DNA of 30,445 bases from Patescibacteria group bacterium (lineage in GTDB: Bacteria; Patescibacteriota; Saccharimonadia; Saccharimonadales; DATIHS01): positions 1 to 30,445 of the forward strand of contig DATIHS010000016.1 of NCBI GenBank assembly GCA_035480475.1, given 5' to 3'. This document shows positions 20,446-30,445 of the stretch, in pieces; within the stretch, counting starts at the first letter, position 1; each line of letters opens with the position of its first letter. A program made the translations under genes and the position numbers. Below the pieces are notes generated by a model. That model had not been told where the DNA came from. It saw nothing but the letters and a program-made list of their open reading frames with translations, and searched no databases.

Positions 20446-21870
20446 CTAGTTCGTAGGGGCAGAGGTGGGCGGTTGCAATTTTGACTTGTCAAAGCTAAAA
20501 CCAAAGGTACTTCCCGCCCCTTCCTGACTCTTGAAGATAATGCTGCCGCCTTGGGCGACGATAACTTTTTTGGCCATAAACAGGCCGAGCCCGGTGCCAT
20601 CCGGCCGCGCTTTGCGGGCATTGCCAGCGCGGTAGAACTTCGTAAACAGGTGGTGTTGTTCTGCTTTTGGTACACCTAAGCCGTCGTCGGTCACGGTGTA
20701 TTCAATGGTTTTATCGGTTTCACGTATACCAACAACAATATGCCCCCCGGTCGGCGTGTAATAAATGGCGTTGTCCATAAAGTTCATAATCACCTGCCGG
20801 ATCTTAGTTTCGTCCAGCATAACCGACGGGAACTTGGCCGGCTTTTCATAAGATAGCTTCAAGCCACGGGCCTGGGCGGTCTCTTGTAACTGATTGACTT
20901 CACTTTCGACAACATCGGCCAGGTTAGTGGCAACGGCCTCAATCACGAACTTGCCGGTTCGCAAACGCGATACGTTCAAGAGGTCGGCAATCAAATACAC
21001 CATGCGTTGGCTACTGGCAAACGCCTGGCTCAGCAGCTTACGCTGCATTTCGCTAATCTCGCCCGCATCCCCTTCGAGCACCATACTCAAGTAGCCTTTC
21101 ACAGAGGTCAGCGGCGTCCGCAACTGGTGCGAGGCCATGCTGATGAACTCGTCCTTCGTTTCATCCATCGTCTTCAGCTTCTCATTCGTCTTTTGCAGCT
21201 GCCGCAACACTTGCTGGTTCTCCTCAAACAGGAGCTTGTTGTCCAACGCAATCCCCACGACTTCGGCCAGACGGTCCAACAAGGCTTTTTCCTTTTCGGT
21301 AATCTCATTGATGGGTTCTGTGAAACCAACAGCCATCAAGCCAACCAGGCGGTGACGAGATAATAGTTTCATAATTGCAATTGATTTAAGGGGTATAACC
21401 TGGCGCAAAGCTGCCACATCATCAACACTGTCGTGTAGTAAATGAGCTATAAAGTTGTCACTTAACTGTGTTACGTCAATAATTGCGGTACGCTCGGGAC
21501 TTACGATCCATTTGTCATGGTCGTCAAGCTCTACCCGGTAGCGATCTACTTCCGGTAGTCCTTCGAACGAGCTTGCCCACCCCATGAGTTCCAGGAAATC
21601 CTTGTGCGGTGGGTTAGCCATAATGGCCACCAAAGGAAAGCTGGATTTCTCAATAATAGCTTGGGCAATGTTTTGGCAAAGCACCTCCAGCTCGTCGTGT
21701 GATTCCAAAGTAAGGTTATCGATCGTCCGTAACAGAGATAGAGTACGATTAATATCCGCCAGCTCCAGGTTACGCTTGTACATTTCCTGGGTAAGTTGAG
21801 CAACATCAACCTCAAGTCGCTTCTTTTTACTACCAAAAACGGTTTTAAGGTGTGTTCTTTGTTTGTCCAC
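20446..21870 (-). CDS. Cytoplasmic sensor histidine kinase (GAF-like + HisKA + HATPase_c)
   Basis: EFISMASHQLRTPLT H-box, NFMDNAIYYT N-box, DDGLGV G1, FTKFYR F-box, GTGLGL G2; no TM segment. Confidence 0.93.
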   Translation of the reverse strand: MDKQRTHLKTVFGSKKKRLEVDVAQLTQEMYKRNLELADINRTLSLLRTIDNLTLESHDELEVLCQNIAQAIIEKSSFPLVAIMANPPHKDFLELMGWASSFEGLPEVDRYRVELDDHDKWIVSPERTAIIDVTQLSDNFIAHLLHDSVDDVAALRQVIPLKSIAIMKLLSRHRLVGLMAVGFTEPINEITEKEKALLDRLAEVVGIALDNKLLFEENQQVLRQLQKTNEKLKTMDETKDEFISMASHQLRTPLTSVKGYLSMVLEGDAGEISEMQRKLLSQAFASSQRMVYLIADLLNVSRLRTGKFVIEAVATNLADVVESEVNQLQETAQARGLKLSYEKPAKFPSVMLDETKIRQVIMNFMDNAIYYTPTGGHIVVGIRETDKTIEYTVTDDGLGVPKAEQHHLFTKFYRAGNARKARPDGTGLGLFMAKKVIVAQGGSIIFKSQEGAGSTFGFSFDKSKLQPPTSAPTN

Positions 21871-21896
21871 CCCATGTCCTTGTGGTTAGGGTCATC

Positions 21897-22178
21897 TTAT
21901 TTCAAAAGGTCAGGTAATTCTTCAGGTTTAAGCTTATTTGCCAAAGATGCAACAGCTTCTTTGCTAGCTTCAACAGCAATTTGACCAAAGAGATCACGAT
22001 AAGCTTCAATCAATTCTTCAACAGCTTCTTTTTCGTCGCCCACGATAGAAACTGTATGATTAGCCCAATCAACTGATATTCCATCTACTTGTTGTGCTTG
22101 TTGTACAGCAACTGGACCAATTATCAATTCTTGTTGGGAAATGATACGTATAGCAATTTGCACATAAATATCCATCAC
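21897..22178 (-). CDS. Small conserved-looking hypothetical protein (93 aa)
   Basis: Clean ORF coupled to the upstream gene (4-nt overlap) and lying directly before the kinase. Confidence 0.75.
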   Translation of the reverse strand: MMDIYVQIAIRIISQQELIIGPVAVQQAQQVDGISVDWANHTVSIVGDEKEAVEELIEAYRDLFGQIAVEASKEAVASLANKLKPEELPDLLK

Positions 22179-23014
22179 GCCACTCCTGGTTGTACCGGTT
22201 TTATGCGCGTAGTGTTTGGTGTTGAACAGAAACCCATAAGTCCAAAGGTCATAAAGAATAGCCCAGCCGTAAGTACTAAGTCACCCCAGTCTCCGTTGTA
22301 AAAAGTGCCGACAGTTGTTGTATACGAAAAGATGAAGTCGCCAAAATACATTACTGCTAGTCCAACCAATATGCACACCATAGACCAGCGGTAGACACCA
22401 CCAAGGAATTTAAATGATAAACCTAGGATAACTGTAGCAAGTGTTAGGCTCATGACATCTCCGAAGGGATAGGCAATATCTAGAAAGACTTTGAGTGGCG
22501 TTTCGCCTGCTGGTACGAGCACACCTTGTCTGGCGACAGTTACTAACAGGTAATAAGATACAGCGAGCACCAAAATAGGTATAGTGACAACGAGTACTTT
22601 CATAATTGGCTTACGCAAACCATACTTTGCACCTGAAGCCCTAGAAAGATTAATGGCACCAATTGCCCAAAAGACAATACTAAGTGCAAAGCCAATATCC
22701 GCGATTGAGGGATATGGTGCTGCAATTTTCGGTACAAAATTGTAATAAGACCACACCATACTACCCGCTCCCCAAAGGAAAAGACCTAGTCCAAAGTAAA
22801 ACACACTTCGCCCAAGGGCACTATGTAAACGACCCCAGATACTTGATTTAAGAATACCGACAAAACCACCTATGAGAGGTACAAGGCTGAACAGAAACGA
22901 ATAAAAGAAATTGAAATTAGTAGTTGTTTTGCCACTCAAATGTAGCCAAATCCAGTAAATTAGTATAAGAACCAGGTAACCAGCAAAAGCCTTTTGAAAT
23001 TTATTTCTAAGCAT
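22175..23014 (-). CDS. Polytopic membrane protein, possible stand-alone 7-8TM sensor domain
   Basis: About 8 hydrophobic helices; WSYYN...PYPSIADIGF and DIAYPFGD motifs, reminiscent of N-terminal membrane sensor modules. Confidence 0.8.
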   Translation of the reverse strand: MLRNKFQKAFAGYLVLILIYWIWLHLSGKTTTNFNFFYSFLFSLVPLIGGFVGILKSSIWGRLHSALGRSVFYFGLGLFLWGAGSMVWSYYNFVPKIAAPYPSIADIGFALSIVFWAIGAINLSRASGAKYGLRKPIMKVLVVTIPILVLAVSYYLLVTVARQGVLVPAGETPLKVFLDIAYPFGDVMSLTLATVILGLSFKFLGGVYRWSMVCILVGLAVMYFGDFIFSYTTTVGTFYNGDWGDLVLTAGLFFMTFGLMGFCSTPNTTRIKPVQPGVA

Positions 23015-23162: not shown

Positions 23163-23828
23163 ATGAATACAATTACGACTCGTACTGCCATTGGCTTTCC
23201 CGAACGGAAGGAAGAATGGAATGAAGCTCCTGCACGTTTTACGGAACATACACTTCGTATTGCTGGTCACCCGGTAATGGAAGATTGGGAAGCCAATTAC
23301 ATGGATAAGCTGGCAGAAATTGCTGCTAGTAAGGGTGGAGCAGTATTGGAATTGGGGTATGGTCTGGGGCTTTCATCAGCCGCAATTCAGACCCGTGGCG
23401 TTGACGCTCACTTCATTATTGAATGCCATCCTGATGTGGTTACACGTAGCATTCAGGATTTACATGAGGGTATTCAGGCTAGTCGTGTCCACATCCTTAG
23501 TGGCTTTTGGCAAGACATTACACCTCGATTGCGAGCGGAAAGTTTTGATGGCATTCTTTTTGATACCTACCCCCTGAATGAGGAGGAAATTCATGGTAAT
23601 CATTTCTGGTTTTTTGATGAAGCATTTCGGTTATTGCGACCTGGTGGCGTTTTAACCTACTACTCAGATGAAGTTGACCGTTTCTCAGAAAAACACCTTG
23701 CCAAGCTCGAAGCTGCTGGCTTTCAACGAGAAAACATCGATTTCGAAATTGTCTCTGTTAATCCACCACCAGACTGTGAGTATTGGGAGGCCAATACTAT
23801 TCTGGCACCTATTGTGCATAAAACTTAG
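23163..23828 (+). CDS. Class I SAM methyltransferase, guanidinoacetate N-methyltransferase (GAMT)/Rmt2-like
   Basis: LRIAGHPVMEDWE..YM, KGGAVLELGYGLG, HFIIECH, FDGILFDTYPL, AFRLLRPGGVLTY, EAAGFQRENI, PPPDCEYW; collinear with recalled human GAMT motifs. Confidence 0.85.
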   Translation: MNTITTRTAIGFPERKEEWNEAPARFTEHTLRIAGHPVMEDWEANYMDKLAEIAASKGGAVLELGYGLGLSSAAIQTRGVDAHFIIECHPDVVTRSIQDLHEGIQASRVHILSGFWQDITPRLRAESFDGILFDTYPLNEEEIHGNHFWFFDEAFRLLRPGGVLTYYSDEVDRFSEKHLAKLEAAGFQRENIDFEIVSVNPPPDCEYWEANTILAPIVHKT

Positions 23829-24952
23829 AGTTGTGTGGTTCTCGGTGTAGGAAAACCGTTAAATTTAGTAGTCAATGTAAAAGTGTAGGCGCCCACGTCT
23901 GAGATAACGAGTTTTTCGCCTAGAGCGAGATCCACAGGTAGTTGAATGGCTTTATTTACTATATCTATGTTGTCACCGGTTGGACCAGTAAGAATATAGT
24001 TTTGTAATTCAATATTGGGATGTTCGAGTAATGGTATGACTTTATATTGGGTACGGCCCTGGAAAGCCATGGCTTCGAATAACGCATTGTATACTCCTGC
24101 GTCAATGTAAAGCCATTCGCCATTTGATCTAACGCTTCGTTCAATCACACTGGTCACTAATACGAAAGCATTTGCAACCAGTCCACGCCCTGGTTCTGCA
24201 ATAAATTTTAAAGGGTAAGGCACAGTTAATACCGAGCTGCGTATACTCGCGCCAATTTCTTCAATGGAAGGAATAGCATCAGCAGGTTGATAACTGAACG
24301 GAAAACCACCCCCAAAATTTATCATTTCCACTTTAATACCGTCTGACTCAAGAACCTTTAGGATAGAAACTACATCCTTAATCCCTCTTGCCCAACCATC
24401 TTTATTACGTGCTTGTGAGCCAACATTAAAACTAATACCATAAGGTAGAAGTCCAAGAATTTTAGCTTTTCTCATTAGCTCAACTGCATTCTTTAGCTGT
24501 GTACCAAATTTTTCTGACATATGAAATACACTGTTGGCTCGGTCGTCAACAAGAGCTCGTACATAGACTTTGGAGCCAGGTGCATATAAGGCAAGTTTTT
24601 CTAGTTCGTGCTCTGAATCAAAAGCAAAACGAGAAACACCATATTTTACAAAATACTTAATGTGTTCTACGGGCTTTACAGATGTACCGTAAAGAATTTT
24701 CGAGGCGTCTACCTTAATTGGCTTGAGAAGGGCTAGCTCATACTTTGAGGCCACTTCAAAACTTGAACCTATACTATTTAGAGTTTGCAGGACCTCTTTT
24801 TCAGAATTGGCTTTCATCGCATAACAGATTTCTGTATTTGATGGTAATTCCTTCAGATATCGATGATAATTTTCTTCTAGTTGCTTTCTATCAAAGACAA
24901 AAAAAGGTGTCTTATTGTTCAATCTGCGTATTGCCTCTTTATAATTTGTCAT
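23825..24952 (-). CDS. Fold-type III PLP enzyme, ornithine/lysine/arginine decarboxylase family with altered active site
   Basis: TPFFVFD, YAMKAN (PLP Lys), FEVAS, FGGGF, EPGRGL, GAYT; but FNVGSQ and GPTGD instead of FHVGSQ and GPTCD. Confidence 0.88.
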   Translation of the reverse strand: MTNYKEAIRRLNNKTPFFVFDRKQLEENYHRYLKELPSNTEICYAMKANSEKEVLQTLNSIGSSFEVASKYELALLKPIKVDASKILYGTSVKPVEHIKYFVKYGVSRFAFDSEHELEKLALYAPGSKVYVRALVDDRANSVFHMSEKFGTQLKNAVELMRKAKILGLLPYGISFNVGSQARNKDGWARGIKDVVSILKVLESDGIKVEMINFGGGFPFSYQPADAIPSIEEIGASIRSSVLTVPYPLKFIAEPGRGLVANAFVLVTSVIERSVRSNGEWLYIDAGVYNALFEAMAFQGRTQYKVIPLLEHPNIELQNYILTGPTGDNIDIVNKAIQLPVDLALGEKLVISDVGAYTFTLTTKFNGFPTPRTTQL

Positions 24953-24956
24953 CTGT

Positions 24957-25841
24957 TTAGGATACCGACAATAGTACTATGCCTGCAAGGATAGTAATTG
25001 AAGCAAGTGCTTGTAGCGGGGAAACTCTTTCATTTAGAAATGTCCTTGCTAGGATAATTGTAGGGATTGAAAACGTTGCTGCCAATACAGTGACGATTGC
25101 AGTGTGCGGAGTTGCGCTAAAGCCATATGAAACAGACGCAAAAGCAAAGACATCAAATACACCGATCCCTATGAGATATTTCCACATTTTGTGTCCTCTT
25201 ATGAAGAGTTTACGACCGGACAAGACAGCATATAAAAAGAGTGTGATGGCAGAAAAGACCCTGATACCGAGGAGAAAAGGCACCCAATTGCGTCCATTTA
25301 GAAAACGATCAAGTGCTATTAACCAGAAAGAATAGCTAACTGTTGCGACTAGAATATAATTCAAACCATCAGTTTTGTGTCTACTATGACCTTTTAATAG
25401 TTTGAAGAGATCTAGCGGATTGGTGCTTACCAGTAAAATGCCGCAAAAGACAATAACAATAGCTAATTGTTGCATATTTGTTAATTGCTCATGGAATACG
25501 CTTGCTGAAATAAGTGCAACTATTGCTGCATAGGAAGCAAATATTGGGCTCAAAAGACTCAGTTTGCCTTTTCCAAAAGCAATGTAGGCTGGAATATAAG
25601 ACAAGCCACTATAAACACCTAAGAGAATTACTTTCAAAGTGTCATGAGAATGAGTTGGTGTATGGGGGTGGTAAGCAATAATTAGTACTATCAGTGGGAA
25701 GATCCCTATAAGTTGACCCCAAAATAATGTGGTAACATCACCAATTTTATCGATCGTTTTTTTAGCAAAAAAGTCAGCAGTACCCCAACCAAGCATTCCA
25801 CCTAGGCCTGCAAGCATAGCAACGAGCAAATCGTGGGGCAT
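24957..25841 (-). CDS. EamA/DMT family transporter
   Basis: 294 aa, about 10 TM in two repeats; LLSPIFASY, ARTFLNERVS..QAL. Confidence 0.88.
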   Translation of the reverse strand: MPHDLLVAMLAGLGGMLGWGTADFFAKKTIDKIGDVTTLFWGQLIGIFPLIVLIIAYHPHTPTHSHDTLKVILLGVYSGLSYIPAYIAFGKGKLSLLSPIFASYAAIVALISASVFHEQLTNMQQLAIVIVFCGILLVSTNPLDLFKLLKGHSRHKTDGLNYILVATVSYSFWLIALDRFLNGRNWVPFLLGIRVFSAITLFLYAVLSGRKLFIRGHKMWKYLIGIGVFDVFAFASVSYGFSATPHTAIVTVLAATFSIPTIILARTFLNERVSPLQALASITILAGIVLLSVS

Positions 25842-27180: not shown

Positions 27181-27579
27181 ATGGTAAAAATTGTCCTGGT
27201 TGAAGATGACAAAATGCTGGCGGAAATTTACCAGACGCGCCTGCAACTGGCTGGGCATGACTGTAAAGTGGCGAATGATGGTTTGAGCGGGTTGGCGCTG
27301 ATTAAGGAAGAGAAGCCTGATTTAGTCCTACTTGATCTGATGTTGCCCTACCTGTCTGGCGATGGTATTTTGCGTGAGATGCGCAAAAACGACTGGGGTA
27401 AACACACCAAAGCTATCTTTTTGACGAATATTAGTGAGTCTGAGGCACCGGAAGGCCTCGAGAAGCTCGGCTTTGAGCGCTACATTGTGAAGGCCAACCT
27501 GGTCAATAACGAATTAGCGGAAGTGGTGGACACTACGCTGGGCCAAAAGCCAGCTACAGATGCACCTGCGACCGCCTAG
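27181..27579 (+). CDS. Stand-alone response regulator receiver
   Basis: LVEDD, LLDLMLP (phospho-Asp), LTN, IVKA; no output domain. Confidence 0.93.
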   Translation: MVKIVLVEDDKMLAEIYQTRLQLAGHDCKVANDGLSGLALIKEEKPDLVLLDLMLPYLSGDGILREMRKNDWGKHTKAIFLTNISESEAPEGLEKLGFERYIVKANLVNNELAEVVDTTLGQKPATDAPATA

Positions 27580-28009: not shown

Positions 28010-29365
28010 ATGCAAGACCAGTTTAGTTTTAAGCAGTTCCGGGTGAGCGATGACCGGCGTGAGGTCTTTTTTGATTACGAATTGGGCCACAACAGTCAAA
28101 CCTACGGTTTGACCGAGTCCCTGCGGTTTCCGGTACCCCTGTTGGATACACCTGCGCAACAGCGCAGTTTGCGAGCGCTGCACATAGCCCTTGGCATTAG
28201 TTATTACAAGATATTTCTACCTGCGTCTATGGCACATCCTTATGCCATGGATGAACCAGAGGCCGATTTTTGGAATGATGTCTGGCAGCATGGTTTGGGG
28301 GAATTTTTATACGTCAATAAGGTTTCGAGTGACCGTCTGGCGCGCTTTAGCCAACAAGATGGGCAGACGTTTGAACCGCCAGCTGCGGATGCACAGGCCA
28401 GCGGTGCCCTGCTTGGCATTGGCGGGGGCAAAGATTCAATTGTGGCTGGTGAACTTTTGAAAGCCCTGGATGTGCCGTTTGACGGTTTTGTCATGGCCAC
28501 GGGAGAACAACTGGGGCAGACCGGCCAGGTGGCCGAGACGATGCAAGTACCACTACATGCCGTTGGACGACAGCTGGATAAACAGCTGCTGGAGCTACAA
28601 ACTGAGCCGGGTGCCATGCAAGGTCACGTACCTATTTCACTTATTTTCGGGTTGGTTGGCACCGCCTTGGCCGTAGCGCTGGCAAAACGCTATGTGGTGG
28701 TTGCCAACGAGGCCAGTGCAAGCATGCCCCAAGTTGATTGGAATGACGTGGCCGTAAACCACCAATGGAGCAAGTCCTTCGGTTTTGAGCGTTCGTTGCA
28801 GGCATCCATCCAAAAATATATTGCCCCGCAGGTTTGCTACTTCAGTGCCATTCGTCAATTGACATCTGTTGGAGTCGCTAAGATATTTAGCAATTACCCC
28901 GCTTACTTTGAGGTCTTTACCAGCGATAATTTTGTTTTTCGGATAGATCCTGCCAAGCGCCCGGCGGGTCGTTGGAGCTTAGAAAGCCCCAAAAGCCTGA
29001 GCAGCTACATCCTGTTGGCGCCTTGGCTAGACAATGAGTCTGTCCAACGGATCTTTGGCCTGGATTTCTTAAACCAGGCGAGTCTGAAACCCCTGTTTTT
29101 GTCGCTCATGGGTGTGGAAGGGGAACCACCGCTCGATTGCGTTGGGACTGTTCCCGAACTAGTGTTGTCGTTAAACTTGCTCGCCCAGGCTGACCGCTAC
29201 GGCAATACTGTGCTTATGCAATTAGCTAAGGAAAACTGTGTTATTGTGCAAAAAGACTGGCAGGCAGAGCTGGCGGCTATGCTCGAGTTGCAGCCCGAAC
29301 AAGCTTTGCCTTCTGAACTTCAAGACGGCGTCCTGCAATTTTTGCAAGCTAGGTTGGCCCAATGA
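28010..29365 (+). CDS. murL: UDP-MurNAc-L-Ala-L-Glu epimerase
   Basis: PP-loop-like GGGKDS, GHVPIS, NEASAS, VNHQWSKS..FE, DCVG; overlaps the downstream murD (ATGA). Confidence 0.8.
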   Translation: MQDQFSFKQFRVSDDRREVFFDYELGHNSQTYGLTESLRFPVPLLDTPAQQRSLRALHIALGISYYKIFLPASMAHPYAMDEPEADFWNDVWQHGLGEFLYVNKVSSDRLARFSQQDGQTFEPPAADAQASGALLGIGGGKDSIVAGELLKALDVPFDGFVMATGEQLGQTGQVAETMQVPLHAVGRQLDKQLLELQTEPGAMQGHVPISLIFGLVGTALAVALAKRYVVVANEASASMPQVDWNDVAVNHQWSKSFGFERSLQASIQKYIAPQVCYFSAIRQLTSVGVAKIFSNYPAYFEVFTSDNFVFRIDPAKRPAGRWSLESPKSLSSYILLAPWLDNESVQRIFGLDFLNQASLKPLFLSLMGVEGEPPLDCVGTVPELVLSLNLLAQADRYGNTVLMQLAKENCVIVQKDWQAELAAMLELQPEQALPSELQDGVLQFLQARLAQ

Positions 29366-30445
29366 AATTTGACCTCTCCGAATTTGCTGGCAAAGACGTC
29401 GTATTTGTAGGCGTCGGGCAAGGCCGCTCAGTGGCCGGTTTTCAGACTTATCTTGAACAACACGCCGACATAAAAAGTTTTGAACGTGTTGATAAAGAAG
29501 ATGGCGCCGAAGCTTTGGCGTTTCTGCGGGACTATGATCCAAGCCAAACTATTTTTGTTAAAAATGAGGCAATCCCCGGCCCAGAGATGCCAGTGCCCTA
29601 TATCACTCCTCTGCAATTATTCTTCCGATTAGCCCAGGATAATCAGCTCACAACTGTCGGTATTACGGGGACGAAAGGCAAAAGTACCACGGCTGCTCTC
29701 ACGGCGCACATCTTGGAAACAGCGGGCAAGTCGGTTGTGCTCGCCGGCAATATTGGTGTTTCACCGTTACCCGCTCTAAGCGAGGCAAGTCCTGAAACTA
29801 TTTTTGTGCTCGAGCTATCCAGTTACCAGTTGTCTGATTTGAAGACCAGTCCGCATATTTCCGCCTGCATCAACCTCTATAATGACCATGCACCTTGGCA
29901 TGGCTCACAGGAGGCCTACTGGGAAGCCAAGCACAATATTATGCGCTTTGCTGGCGCTGACGATGTTTTTATCTACAATCCTTCCTTCCCTACCATGCAA
30001 CAATGGGCAACGGAAGCAACTTGTCACACCGTTGCTATCGATCCGGCCGAACCGCTGGACCTTCGTGATGCCCAGTTATACGGTGACCATAATCGTCTGA
30101 ATGCCTTGGTGGCACGTGAGATAGCACGGCAGTTTAAGGTAGCTGATGATGTTTCACATAGCGCCCTTCGTTCGTTCCAACCCCTGGCACACCGTATGCA
30201 AACGATTGTGGTCAAAGACGGGCACACCTATATTGACGATGCTATCGGTATGACGCCAGAATCAACCTTGGCCAGTTTGAAGGCCGTTACGGAACACGTC
30301 GGCCCCATCGGATGCTTATTGCTTGGCGGGCAGGACCGCGATTATGACTTTAAAGAGTTATTGCAAAACGTTGCGGATTATAAAATTCCAGCGCTGGTAC
30401 TTTTCCCGAATACCCAAGCCAAAATGAAAGCCGCTTTACCGGCGG
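29362..30445 (+). CDS. murD: UDP-MurNAc-L-Ala:glutamate ligase (MurD/MurD2-type), 3'-truncated by the window end
   Basis: Not in the ORF track; open from ATG 29362 to the window end. ITGTKGKSTT, AGNIG, VLELSSYQL, NDH..WHG..EAY..AK, HRMQ, LLGG.DR. Confidence 0.9.
   Translation, partial: MKFDLSEFAGKDVVFVGVGQGRSVAGFQTYLEQHADIKSFERVDKEDGAEALAFLRDYDPSQTIFVKNEAIPGPEMPVPYITPLQLFFRLAQDNQLTTVGITGTKGKSTTAALTAHILETAGKSVVLAGNIGVSPLPALSEASPETIFVLELSSYQLSDLKTSPHISACINLYNDHAPWHGSQEAYWEAKHNIMRFAGADDVFIYNPSFPTMQQWATEATCHTVAIDPAEPLDLRDAQLYGDHNRLNALVAREIARQFKVADDVSHSALRSFQPLAHRMQTIVVKDGHTYIDDAIGMTPESTLASLKAVTEHVGPIGCLLLGGQDRDYDFKELLQNVADYKIPALVLFPNTQAKMKAALPA

What the first reader, a model, noticed from the sequence alone, without database searches (positions are those of the whole stretch)
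23825..24952. Decarboxylase homologue with both the PLP-stacking His and the catalytic Cys replaced
The codons read AAT (Asn176, 24425-27) in FNVGSQ and GGT (Gly326, 23975-77) in GPTGD. In eukaryotic-type ODC these are His197 (stacks on PLP) and Cys360 (protonates the intermediate; mutants shift toward transamination). The PLP Lys, Gly loop, EPGR and Tyr are kept, so the cofactor is probably bound. Different chemistry or a bulkier (for example methylated) substrate is plausible.
Basis: partly seen in the sequence, partly recalled or inferred. Interest (0 to 1): 0.7.

Follow-up and report, generated by a model that had tools for sequence, protein, structure and literature searches.

The report
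ODC-type decarboxylase lacking catalytic Cys and His
A tiny Saccharibacteria-type bacterium carries an intact, conserved ornithine-decarboxylase-like enzyme whose "universal" catalytic cysteine is glycine and whose cofactor-stacking histidine is asparagine. This is a family trait shared by over a hundred relatives, not decay, and the gene sits in a conserved transporter, methyltransferase and sensor-kinase cluster.

Summary
ORF 23825-24952(-) encodes a 375-aa fold-type III (ODC-type) PLP decarboxylase homologue. Asn176 (AAT) sits where ODC has His197, and Gly326 (GGT) where ODC has Cys360.

The changes are not private. The 128 nearest homologues (43-62% identity, Saccharimonadia, Andersenbacteria and other CPR) form one clade in which none has both His and Cys:
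- Position 326 is Gly in 112, Cys in 15 and Ala in 1.
- Position 176 is Asn in 84, His in 40 and Tyr/Cys/Ser in 4.
- Both positions flipped at least 6-9 times on the trees.
- Sixteen of the 20 other critical ODC residues are kept: K47, E72, R132, G214-216, E253, R256, D327, D330 and Y356 in all 128, and K148, G354 and F364 in 125-127.

The GAMT-like neighbour is a true GAMT homologue, but it also accompanies canonical His/Cys relatives, so it does not explain Asn/Gly. The constant partners are a ~270-aa membrane protein and a 92-aa protein. A GAF histidine kinase and an EamA transporter are usually present too.

Most likely this is an active decarboxylase of a basic or guanidino amino acid with relaxed or rerouted Cα protonation. 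A switch to aldehyde formation is the interesting alternative.

The parts
23825..24952 (-). ODC-type fold-III PLP decarboxylase homologue, 375 aa (P0001)
   Evidence: Pfam Orn_Arg_deC_N E 2e-47 plus Orn_DAP_Arg_deC E 4e-14. AlphaFold model has pLDDT 95.2. The best PDB fold match is T. brucei ODC 1f3t, TM 0.90.
24425..24427 (-). Asn176 codon AAT, at the position of ODC His197 (PLP stacking)
   Evidence: In the clade: N 84, H 40, Y 2, C 1, S 1 of 128.
23975..23977 (-). Gly326 codon GGT, at the position of ODC Cys360
   Evidence: In the clade: G 112, C 15, A 1 of 128.
24812..24814 (-). Lys47, Schiff-base lysine (ODC Lys69)
   Evidence: Invariant in 128/128 clade members and in all relatives compared.
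24059..24061 (-). Gln298, aligned with the specificity-helix Asp332 of ODC
   Evidence: HMMER alignments to 5gjm and 7odc. Gln in 128/128 variant-clade and 13/13 type-A proteins. The region is gap-prone, so the equivalence is less certain than for the other residues.
24683..24685 (-). Thr90 (ODC Asn112 position), clade-specific and tracking Gly326
   Evidence: Thr in 106 of 113 rows with Gly/Ala326. Ser/Asn/Ala in 14 of 15 rows with Cys326. The same direction was seen in 2-3 of 4 independent pairs, which is not significant.
24740..24742 (-). Tyr71 (ODC Thr93 position, next to Glu94), clade-specific Tyr/His
   Evidence: Y 107 and H 14 of 128 in the clade, against G/N/S/A in canonical relatives.
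24957..25841 (-). EamA/DMT-family transporter, 294 aa, ending 4 nt upstream of the decarboxylase start
   Evidence: Pfam EamA E 5e-28. Directly upstream of the decarboxylase in 16 of 18 variant-clade loci.
23163..23828 (+). GAMT-like SAM methyltransferase, 221 aa (P0272), convergent with the decarboxylase and overlapping its 3' end by 4 nt
   Evidence: Human and rat GAMT at E 2e-47 and 5e-45, with a 13-residue deletion relative to them. Precomputed Pfam PF27704.
22175..23014 (-). Multi-pass membrane protein, 279 aa (P0271), with a sensor-domain-like fold
   Evidence: No Pfam hit. The Atlas model aligns over 240-260 residues with N-terminal membrane domains of GGDEF and histidine-kinase proteins, TM 0.71-0.79. 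A homologue is present in 18/18 variant-clade loci.
21897..22178 (-). Conserved 92/93-aa protein of unknown function, overlapping the membrane-protein gene by 4 nt
   Evidence: Follows the membrane protein in every locus whose flank reaches it. No family assigned.
20446..21870 (-). GAF-HisKA-HATPase sensor histidine kinase, 474 aa
   Evidence: Pfam. Follows the 92-aa gene in 10 of 12 fully viewed variant-clade loci.
27181..27579 (+). Single-domain response regulator
   Evidence: Pfam Response_reg E 2e-17. A homologue lies near the cluster in most related loci.

Best explanation
P0001 is a functional, homodimeric PLP enzyme of the ODC/L-ODC/ADC type. It belongs to a Patescibacteria (CPR)-specific clade that descended from canonical His/Cys decarboxylases and lost the requirement for the Cys360/His197 pair.

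It most likely still binds a basic or guanidino L-amino acid through Asp327, Glu293 and Gln298, forms the external aldimine on Lys47-PLP, and decarboxylates it. The Cα proton would then come from something other than the canonical thiol. Candidates are water in the space opened by Gly326, Lys47, or the clade-specific Thr90 or Tyr71.

The amine product is probably moved by the translationally coupled EamA transporter and, where the GAMT-like enzyme is present, N-methylated on a guanidino group.

The gene is part of a conserved module with a sensor-like membrane protein, a 92-aa protein, a GAF histidine kinase and a response regulator. The product may therefore be a low-flux signal or envelope/pH-homeostasis metabolite rather than a bulk polyamine precursor. 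That would explain why catalytic efficiency at the protonation step is under relaxed constraint.

Shown: fold, residue states, clade conservation, repeated flipping and gene neighbourhood. Inferred: activity, substrate class, proton source and physiological role.
For: - Intact ORF with both Pfam domains. The model has pLDDT 95 and TM 0.90 to T. brucei ODC.
- Sixteen of the 20 residues listed as critical for ODC (PMC5518511) are kept in the clade, 13 of them in 128/128 and K148, G354 and F364 in 125-127. These include the Schiff-base Lys, the phosphate loop, E253/R256, D327/D330, Y356 and the CO2-pocket F364.
- The clade is one side of a branch. All His+Cys rows fall on the other side, with support 84/79, and it is nested beside His/Cys CPR decarboxylases with support 97/89.
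- G/C at 326 changed at least 6-9 times and H/N at 176 at least 6-8 times. This argues for relaxed or alternative constraint at just these sites.
- Only one PF02784 gene was found in the genome, so no canonical partner subunit is available.
- ADI/amidinotransferase, agmatine deiminase, spermidine synthase and arginase/agmatinase families were not found in the 86%-complete genome. The product is therefore not feeding standard polyamine synthesis.
- The neighbourhood is conserved across 18 loci from several CPR classes.
Against: - No biochemical data exist for any clade member.
- From my own recollection of Jackson et al. 2000 (cited but not read here), C360A/S mutants decarboxylate slowly and mostly mis-protonate at C4'. 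A plain amine-forming reaction without this Cys is therefore unproven.
- No His+Cys combination occurs in 128 clade members, although each state is one nucleotide away. This hints that the canonical pair may be selected against, which fits a changed reaction better than mere relaxation. The pattern is not statistically secure.
- The substrate is unknown, and Gln298 in place of the specificity Asp argues against simple ornithine or lysine.
- In the window, the methyltransferase gene lies antisense between the decarboxylase and the membrane-protein gene. A single operon is therefore not shown here.
Confidence: 0.5

Rival explanations
1. Reaction-specificity switch. With the Cα proton donor removed, and often the stacking His as well, the quinonoid formed after decarboxylation is protonated at C4' or attacked by O2. 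The enzyme would then make an amino- or guanidino-aldehyde (for example 4-guanidinobutanal, or 4-aminobutanal that cyclises to Δ1-pyrroline) instead of an amine. It would be a natural fold-III counterpart of aromatic aldehyde synthases and plant OLADOs.
For: - In fold-I decarboxylases, loss of the proton donor (Tyr to Phe) or of the stacking His192 (to Asn) converts decarboxylases into aldehyde synthases, repeatedly and in parallel (PMC7497351; bioRxiv 10.1101/2024.06.04.597157).
- The two residues changed here are the fold-III positional counterparts.
- No clade member of 128 carries both His and Cys.
- From recollection, ODC C360A/S mainly yields γ-aminobutyraldehyde plus PMP (Jackson et al. 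2000, cited, not read).
Against: - Cys326 reappears at least 4-5 times inside the clade and His176 several times. This is odd if either residue restores amine formation.
- No aldehyde-handling enzyme or keto-acid partner is conserved in the 18 neighbourhoods.
- PMP formation without a recycling half-reaction inactivates the enzyme.
- O2 use is doubtful for many CPR habitats.
- The absence of H+C is not statistically robust, with only 4 well-supported independent G/C contrasts.
Confidence: 0.2
2. Pseudoenzyme or ligand sensor. The protein binds PLP and an amino acid but no longer turns over. It acts as the ligand-binding partner of the adjacent membrane protein and GAF-kinase module, in the way antizyme inhibitor is a non-catalytic ODC homologue.
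For: - Constant linkage to a sensor-like membrane protein, a 92-aa protein and a histidine kinase.
- Two catalytic residues are lost.
- Mouse ODCrp keeps all 20 critical residues yet showed no activity on Orn, Lys or Arg.
Against: - Residues needed only for chemistry and CO2 release are kept in all or nearly all of the 128 proteins: K47 and N365 in all, F364 in 127, plus E253 on the pyridine N.
- By my recollection, antizyme inhibitor has lost the Schiff-base Lys, whereas here it is invariant.
- A translationally coupled transporter suggests substrate or product flux.
Confidence: 0.08
3. Decay. The substitutions are strain-private damage to an ordinary ODC/ADC gene.
For: None beyond the two substitutions themselves.
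Against: - 112 of 128 homologues share Gly326 and 84 share Asn176, at only 43-62% identity to the window protein.
- The frame is open.
- All other functional residues are kept in all or nearly all members.
- Synteny is conserved across CPR classes.
Confidence: 0.01

Closest known systems
Eukaryotic-type ornithine decarboxylase and bacterial lysine/ornithine decarboxylase (T. brucei/mouse/human ODC; Selenomonas ruminantium and Vibrio vulnificus L/ODC), fold-type III (AR-fold)
   Same: - Same two-domain fold (TM 0.89-0.91) and 27-32% identity.
- E-values 1e-38 to 1e-47.
- Same Schiff-base Lys, Gly loop, EPGR, Tyr, the Asp next to the Cys position, the dimer-interface Asp and Lys, and the CO2-pocket Phe-Asn.
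   Different: - His197 is Asn, Cys360 is Gly, Asp332 is Gln and Asp88 is Glu.
- It has clade-specific Thr90 and Tyr71.
- It sits in a transporter and sensor-kinase cluster, not a polyamine pathway.
- No spermidine synthase, agmatinase or agmatine deiminase was found in the genome.
PBCV-1 arginine decarboxylase (2nv9/2nva), an ODC-derived ADC
   Same: Same fold and size (TM 0.90; E 2e-33). A guanidino substrate would fit the neighbouring GAMT-like enzyme.
   Different: The viral enzyme keeps His and Cys. No evidence here identifies arginine as the substrate.
ODC C360A/C360S laboratory mutants (Jackson et al. 2000, Biochemistry 39:11247; cited in PMC7857480, not read here)
   Same: The same position loses the thiol.
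   Different: Those are engineered single mutants of a eukaryotic ODC. Here the change is natural, ancient, shared by over 100 sequences and accompanied by other clade-specific changes.
Fold-I aldehyde synthases (plant AAS/PAAS, insect DHPAA synthase, plant OLADO)
   Same: Natural decarboxylase descendants in which the Cα proton donor or the PLP-stacking His (His192 to Asn) is replaced. This is the same logic of residue loss.
   Different: They have an unrelated fold (type I). This is an analogy only, and no product data exist for the CPR clade.
Antizyme inhibitor and ODC-related pseudoenzymes
   Same: ODC homologues with altered catalytic residues.
   Different: By recollection they lose the Schiff-base Lys and PLP binding. 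Here every PLP ligand is invariant.

Membership tests
Fold-type III (AR-fold, group IV) PLP-dependent basic amino-acid decarboxylases (Pfam PF02784 + PF00278) | N-terminal TIM-barrel PLP domain plus C-terminal β-sheet domain | tested here: met
   PF02784 at 162 bits (cut-off 23.4) and PF00278 at 53 bits (cut-off 23). Model pLDDT 95 and TM 0.90 to ODC 1f3t.
Fold-type III (AR-fold, group IV) PLP-dependent basic amino-acid decarboxylases (Pfam PF02784 + PF00278) | Schiff-base Lys, Gly-rich phosphate loop, Glu on pyridine N, Arg and Tyr on phosphate (ODC K69, G235-237, E274, R277, Y389) | tested here: met
   K47, G214-216, E253, R256 and Y356 are present, and invariant in 128/128 clade members.
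Fold-type III (AR-fold, group IV) PLP-dependent basic amino-acid decarboxylases (Pfam PF02784 + PF00278) | PLP-stacking His (ODC His197) | tested here: not met
   Asn176. His is present in 95/99 more distant representatives.
Fold-type III (AR-fold, group IV) PLP-dependent basic amino-acid decarboxylases (Pfam PF02784 + PF00278) | Catalytic Cys from the partner subunit (ODC Cys360), stated to be conserved in all AR-fold decarboxylases (PMC7857480) | tested here: not met
   Gly326. Cys is present in 96/99 more distant representatives.
Fold-type III (AR-fold, group IV) PLP-dependent basic amino-acid decarboxylases (Pfam PF02784 + PF00278) | Acidic residues binding the distal cationic group (ODC Asp361 next to the Cys; Asp332 on the specificity helix) | tested here: inconclusive
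   Asp327 is kept in 128/128. The Asp332 position aligns with Gln298 in 128/128. The helix region is gap-prone, and a conserved Glu293 lies five residues upstream.
Fold-type III (AR-fold, group IV) PLP-dependent basic amino-acid decarboxylases (Pfam PF02784 + PF00278) | Decarboxylase activity yielding an amine | not testable with these tools
   Needs enzyme assays.
Diaminopimelate decarboxylase LysA (NCBIfam TIGR01048 equivalog) | Score at or above the curated cut-off | tested here: not met
   180.4 bits against a cut-off of 297.9. PDB matches to ODC and L/ODC are far stronger than to DAPDC.
Antizyme-inhibitor-like catalytically dead ODC homologues | Loss of the Schiff-base Lys and PLP binding (definition from recollection) | tested here: not met
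   Lys47 and all PLP ligands are invariant.
Guanidinoacetate N-methyltransferase family (the neighbour P0272) | Full-length similarity to GAMT, including the guanidino-binding acidic residues | tested here: met
   Human GAMT 3orh at E 2e-47 over residues 17-220. The PVMEDWE and FDTYPL motifs are aligned. Precomputed PF27704.
Guanidinoacetate N-methyltransferase family (the neighbour P0272) | The segment after GGVLTY that, by my recollection, binds the guanidinoacetate carboxylate | tested here: not met
   A 13-residue deletion relative to human and rat GAMT. A substrate other than guanidinoacetate is likely.

The most novel reading that the evidence does not exclude
The clade is the first natural fold-type III 'decarboxylase-aldehyde synthase'. 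By discarding the Cys360/His197 protonation pair, it would convert a basic or guanidino amino acid in one step into an amino- or guanidino-aldehyde or cyclic imine. That product would serve as a diffusible signal, made, exported by EamA and sensed by the co-conserved membrane-sensor and GAF-kinase module of ultra-small CPR bacteria.
Probability: 0.12. Interest if true: 0.85.

Novelty: new variant of a known kind. Interest (0 to 1): 0.62.

Why it matters
[quoted passage not shown] A large clade under purifying selection breaks that rule. It toggles Gly/Cys and His/Asn while freezing every other active-site residue.

This is a natural experiment on how the fold controls Cα versus C4' protonation. 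The same question underlies the decarboxylase-to-aldehyde-synthase switches seen in fold-I enzymes.

It also points to an uncharacterised small-molecule module in Patescibacteria: transporter, decarboxylase, GAMT-like guanidino methyltransferase and a dedicated sensor kinase. In sister clusters an N-acyl synthase-like GNAT is also present. These organisms have almost no biosynthesis, and such a module could mediate signalling or interaction with hosts. Assays on one or two recombinant proteins would settle the chemistry.

Tried and rejected
- A pattern scan of genome contigs with the single protein found no relatives. The genome search was used instead.
- I tested whether the 279-aa membrane protein is a split-off copy of the 7TM region of the long kinases in sister clusters. 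HMM searches gave no significant match (E above 0.5). Only predicted-structure similarity to sensor membrane domains supports a sensor role.
- hhalign found no relation between the small proteins of the two cluster types (probability below 1%).
- Covariation of position 326 with positions 90, 176 and 71 was tested by independent contrasts. There are only 4 well-supported contrasts, so no test can reach significance.
- Literature searches for bacterial GAMT homologues, N-methylagmatine and Saccharibacteria ODC found nothing on this family.
- The heterodimer 'prozyme' idea, in which a canonical paralogue supplies the Cys, was rejected. The genome has a single PF02784 gene, with the caveat that it is 86% complete.
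- The LysA assignment was rejected.
- Decay was rejected.
- dN/dS was not attempted because synonymous sites are saturated at 43-62% protein identity.
Full report
**Observation**

The ORF 23825-24952 on the minus strand is open and gives a 375-aa protein, P0001. 24425-24427 reads AAT (Asn176, in FNVGSQ) and 23975-23977 reads GGT (Gly326, in GPTGD).

Pfam finds both domains of the ornithine/DAP/arginine decarboxylase family: PF02784 at E 2e-47 and PF00278 at E 4e-14. The best solved relatives are:
- Selenomonas ruminantium lysine/ornithine decarboxylase 5gjm (E 3e-47)
- mouse, human and T. brucei ODC (E about 1e-43 to 1e-46)
- Vibrio L/ODC
- chlorella-virus arginine decarboxylase

Diaminopimelate decarboxylases are much weaker, and the LysA equivalog model is missed (180 bits against a cut-off of 298).

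In the printed alignments Asn176 lies on the His of FHVGS and Gly326 on the Cys of GP(S/T)CD. With the 7odc numbering these are His197 and Cys360. An AlphaFold model built on 86 homologues is confident (pLDDT 95.2, pTM 0.92). It superposes on T. brucei ODC, SrLDC and cvADC at TM 0.90-0.91.

**All 20 critical ODC residues**

I used the list of 20 residues critical for ODC given in PMC5518511 and mapped it through the 7odc alignment.

| ODC residue(s) | Window protein | State |
|---|---|---|
| K69, E94, R154, K169, G171, S200 | K47, E72, R132, K148, G150, S179 | kept |
| G235-237, E274, R277 | G214-216, E253, R256 | kept |
| D361, D364, G387, Y389, F397 | D327, D330, G354, Y356, F364 | kept |
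| D88 | E66 | changed (a change also seen in half of canonical bacterial relatives) |
| H197 | N176 | changed |
| D332 | Q298 | changed |
| C360 | G326 | changed |

So 16 are kept and 4 differ. The position is the specificity-helix Asp that binds the distal amine in ODC, L/ODC, ADC and CASDC (PMC7857480). That stretch is gap-prone in alignments, and an invariant Glu293 lies five residues upstream, so the equivalence is less secure than the others.

**Private decay or family trait?**

The 120 best homologues from 5.8 billion proteins are 47-62% identical. They come from metagenomes and MAGs labelled Saccharimonadales, Saccharibacteria and Andersenbacteria. Their states at 176/326 are N/G 64, H/G 37, N/C 16, and C/G, S/G and N/A once each. 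None is H/C.

An exhaustive HMMER search of 1.84 billion representatives gave 9504 relatives. Among the best 150, 127 are H/C, and the variants are confined to the nearest clusters.

In a set of 128 variant-clade proteins, every kept critical residue is conserved in all or nearly all members (13 positions in 128/128; K148, G354 and F364 in 125-127), while 176 and 326 vary. That is the signature of purifying selection on a working PLP site, with changed constraint at exactly two positions. It is not the signature of a pseudogene.

**Phylogeny**

I built an IQ-TREE tree of 68 proteins with the two trait columns removed.
- All His+Cys rows fall on one side of a branch (support 84/79).
- The variant clade (51 rows) sits next to His/Cys decarboxylases of other Saccharimonadia (97/89).
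- Inside the clade, G/C at 326 needs at least 6 changes and H/N at 176 at least 6. On a 149-row tree the figures are 9 and 8.
- Well-supported sister pairs differ only in one state, for example P0021 (N/G) with P0034 (N/C) at 100/100, and P0108 (H/G) with P0120 (N/G) at 100/98.

Each flip is a single nucleotide (GGT/TGT, AAT/CAT). Yet His and Cys never occur together in the clade. Naive independence would predict about 5 of 128, but there are only about 4 well-supported independent contrasts, so this is a hint and not a result.

Two further clade-specific residues may matter:
- Thr90 (ODC Asn112 position) accompanies Gly/Ala326 in 106 of 113 rows. It is replaced by Ser/Asn/Ala in 14 of 15 Cys326 rows.
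- Tyr or His at 71 (next to the Glu94 equivalent) is present in 95% of the clade, against Gly/Asn/Ser in canonical relatives.

Either could be part of a substitute proton relay. I could not measure distances because model coordinates are not exposed.

**Neighbourhood**

The gene is patchy. It was found in 28 of 301 genomes of the same class and 19 of 401 of the phylum, at the thresholds used. The closest species-representative homologue (61%) is in another class, which suggests transfer within the CPR.

Two cluster types emerged.

| Feature | Type A | Type B |
|---|---|---|
| Decarboxylase | canonical His/Cys | variant clade (18 loci, including the window) |
| GAMT-like methyltransferase | present, opposite strand | present in 8 of 18 loci |
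| Transporter | none noted | EamA directly upstream (16/18; 4-nt spacer in the window) |
| Downstream genes | ~130-aa membrane protein, then a FeeM-like GNAT (N-acyl amino-acid synthase family) | ~270-aa membrane protein (18/18), then a 92-aa protein |
| Kinase | 726-824-aa kinase with HisKA_7TM and GAF domains | ~480-aa GAF-HisKA-HATPase kinase (10/12 fully viewed loci) |
| Response regulator | present | nearby |

The predicted structure of the membrane protein resembles the N-terminal membrane sensor domains of GGDEF and kinase proteins (TM 0.71-0.79 over 240-260 residues). It shows no sequence relation to the 7TM region of the type-A kinases.

**The GAMT question**

The neighbour P0272 is a real GAMT homologue (human GAMT at E 2e-47). 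It keeps the two acidic motifs that, by my recollection, hold the guanidino group. It lacks a 13-residue segment after GGVLTY that, again by recollection, binds the guanidinoacetate carboxylate. The likely substrate is therefore another guanidino compound.

GAMT-like genes flank His/Cys decarboxylases in 10 type-A loci. They flank N/G and N/C loci in 8 of 9 cases. They flank none of the 9 His/Tyr176+Gly326 loci examined. The methyltransferase is thus ancestral to both types and was lost in some lineages. It does not track Gly326, and its association with Asn176 inside the clade follows one subclade.

**Metabolic setting**

The genome is 691 kb, in 103 contigs, and 86% complete. It has one PF02784 gene only. 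I found no ADI/amidinotransferase, agmatine deiminase, spermidine synthase or arginase/agmatinase family member. The product therefore does not enter standard polyamine synthesis, and no canonical paralogue could lend a Cys across a heterodimer interface.

**What is known**

[quoted passage not shown] The clade is an exception to a stated universal.

From my own knowledge, Jackson et al. 2000 (cited there but not readable here) showed that ODC C360A/S mainly mis-protonates at C4', giving γ-aminobutyraldehyde and PMP.

In unrelated fold-I decarboxylases, natural loss of the proton donor (Tyr to Phe) or of the stacking His192 (to Asn) creates aldehyde synthases, repeatedly and in parallel (PMC7497351; bioRxiv 10.1101/2024.06.04.597157). 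Literature searches found nothing on this CPR family.

**Interpretation**

The best-supported reading (about 0.5) is an active decarboxylase of a basic or guanidino amino acid. Its Cα protonation no longer depends on Cys360/His197. It works in a low-flux, sensor-linked module with an exporter and, in part of the clade, a guanidino N-methyltransferase.

The repeated reappearance of Cys and His argues for functional equivalence of the states. The absence of the His+Cys pair and the fold-I precedents keep a reaction-specificity switch to aldehyde formation alive (about 0.2). A non-catalytic sensor is unlikely because residues needed only for chemistry are kept in all or nearly all members (about 0.08). 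Decay is excluded.

**Verdict**

This is a new variant of a known enzyme kind. It is of real interest to PLP enzymologists and to CPR biology, and it needs simple biochemistry to resolve.

Noticed in passing
window 23163-23828 (+); P0374: The GAMT-like methyltransferase family is more conserved than the decarboxylase (58-75% identity among 120 homologues). One 60%-identical member is annotated from a 7.6-Mb contig of the fungus Cladobotryum mycophilum. This could be inter-domain transfer or a shared short-form GAMT lineage.
   Followed up: no
L039:8743-14626, L035, L037, L038, L040 (sister Saccharimonadia genomes): Sister 'type A' clusters have this gene order: GAMT-like MT, canonical decarboxylase, ~130-aa membrane protein, FeeM-like GNAT (N-acyl amino-acid synthase family), 7TM-GAF histidine kinase, response regulator. 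This looks like a synthase-plus-receptor module for an N-acylated guanidino amine.
   Followed up: partly
L042:9303-10085: In a Cys326/Asn176 locus, a second methyltransferase of the NNMT/PNMT/TEMT amine N-methyltransferase family sits between the GAMT-like gene and the membrane-protein gene, and there is no EamA.
   Followed up: no
window 20446-23014 (-): The membrane protein (279 aa), the 93-aa protein and the GAF kinase have 4-nt overlaps or short spacers. They look like a sensor kinase split into three polypeptides. The trio is conserved across CPR classes.
   Followed up: partly
L049 (G567:C5:9621-13736): The closest species-representative homologue of the decarboxylase (61%) lies in a genome of another class of the phylum, while the best in the window's own class is 55%. 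The gene was found in under 10% of the genomes searched. This suggests lateral spread within the CPR.
   Followed up: no
L059 (G558:C14): A distant homologue (34% identity) has Leu at the Cys360 position with His kept, and is also next to an orf279-like membrane protein. Two others have Ser at the His position with Cys kept (L061, L063).
   Followed up: no
window 28010-30444 (+); L033, L030, L044: MurL-like epimerase and MurD-like ligase genes lie a few kb from the cluster in the window and in three related loci. Other loci have Ddl/VanW or PBP/MreC nearby. The best PDB relative, SrLDC, makes cadaverine, which by my recollection is attached to peptidoglycan. This may be synteny only.
   Followed up: no
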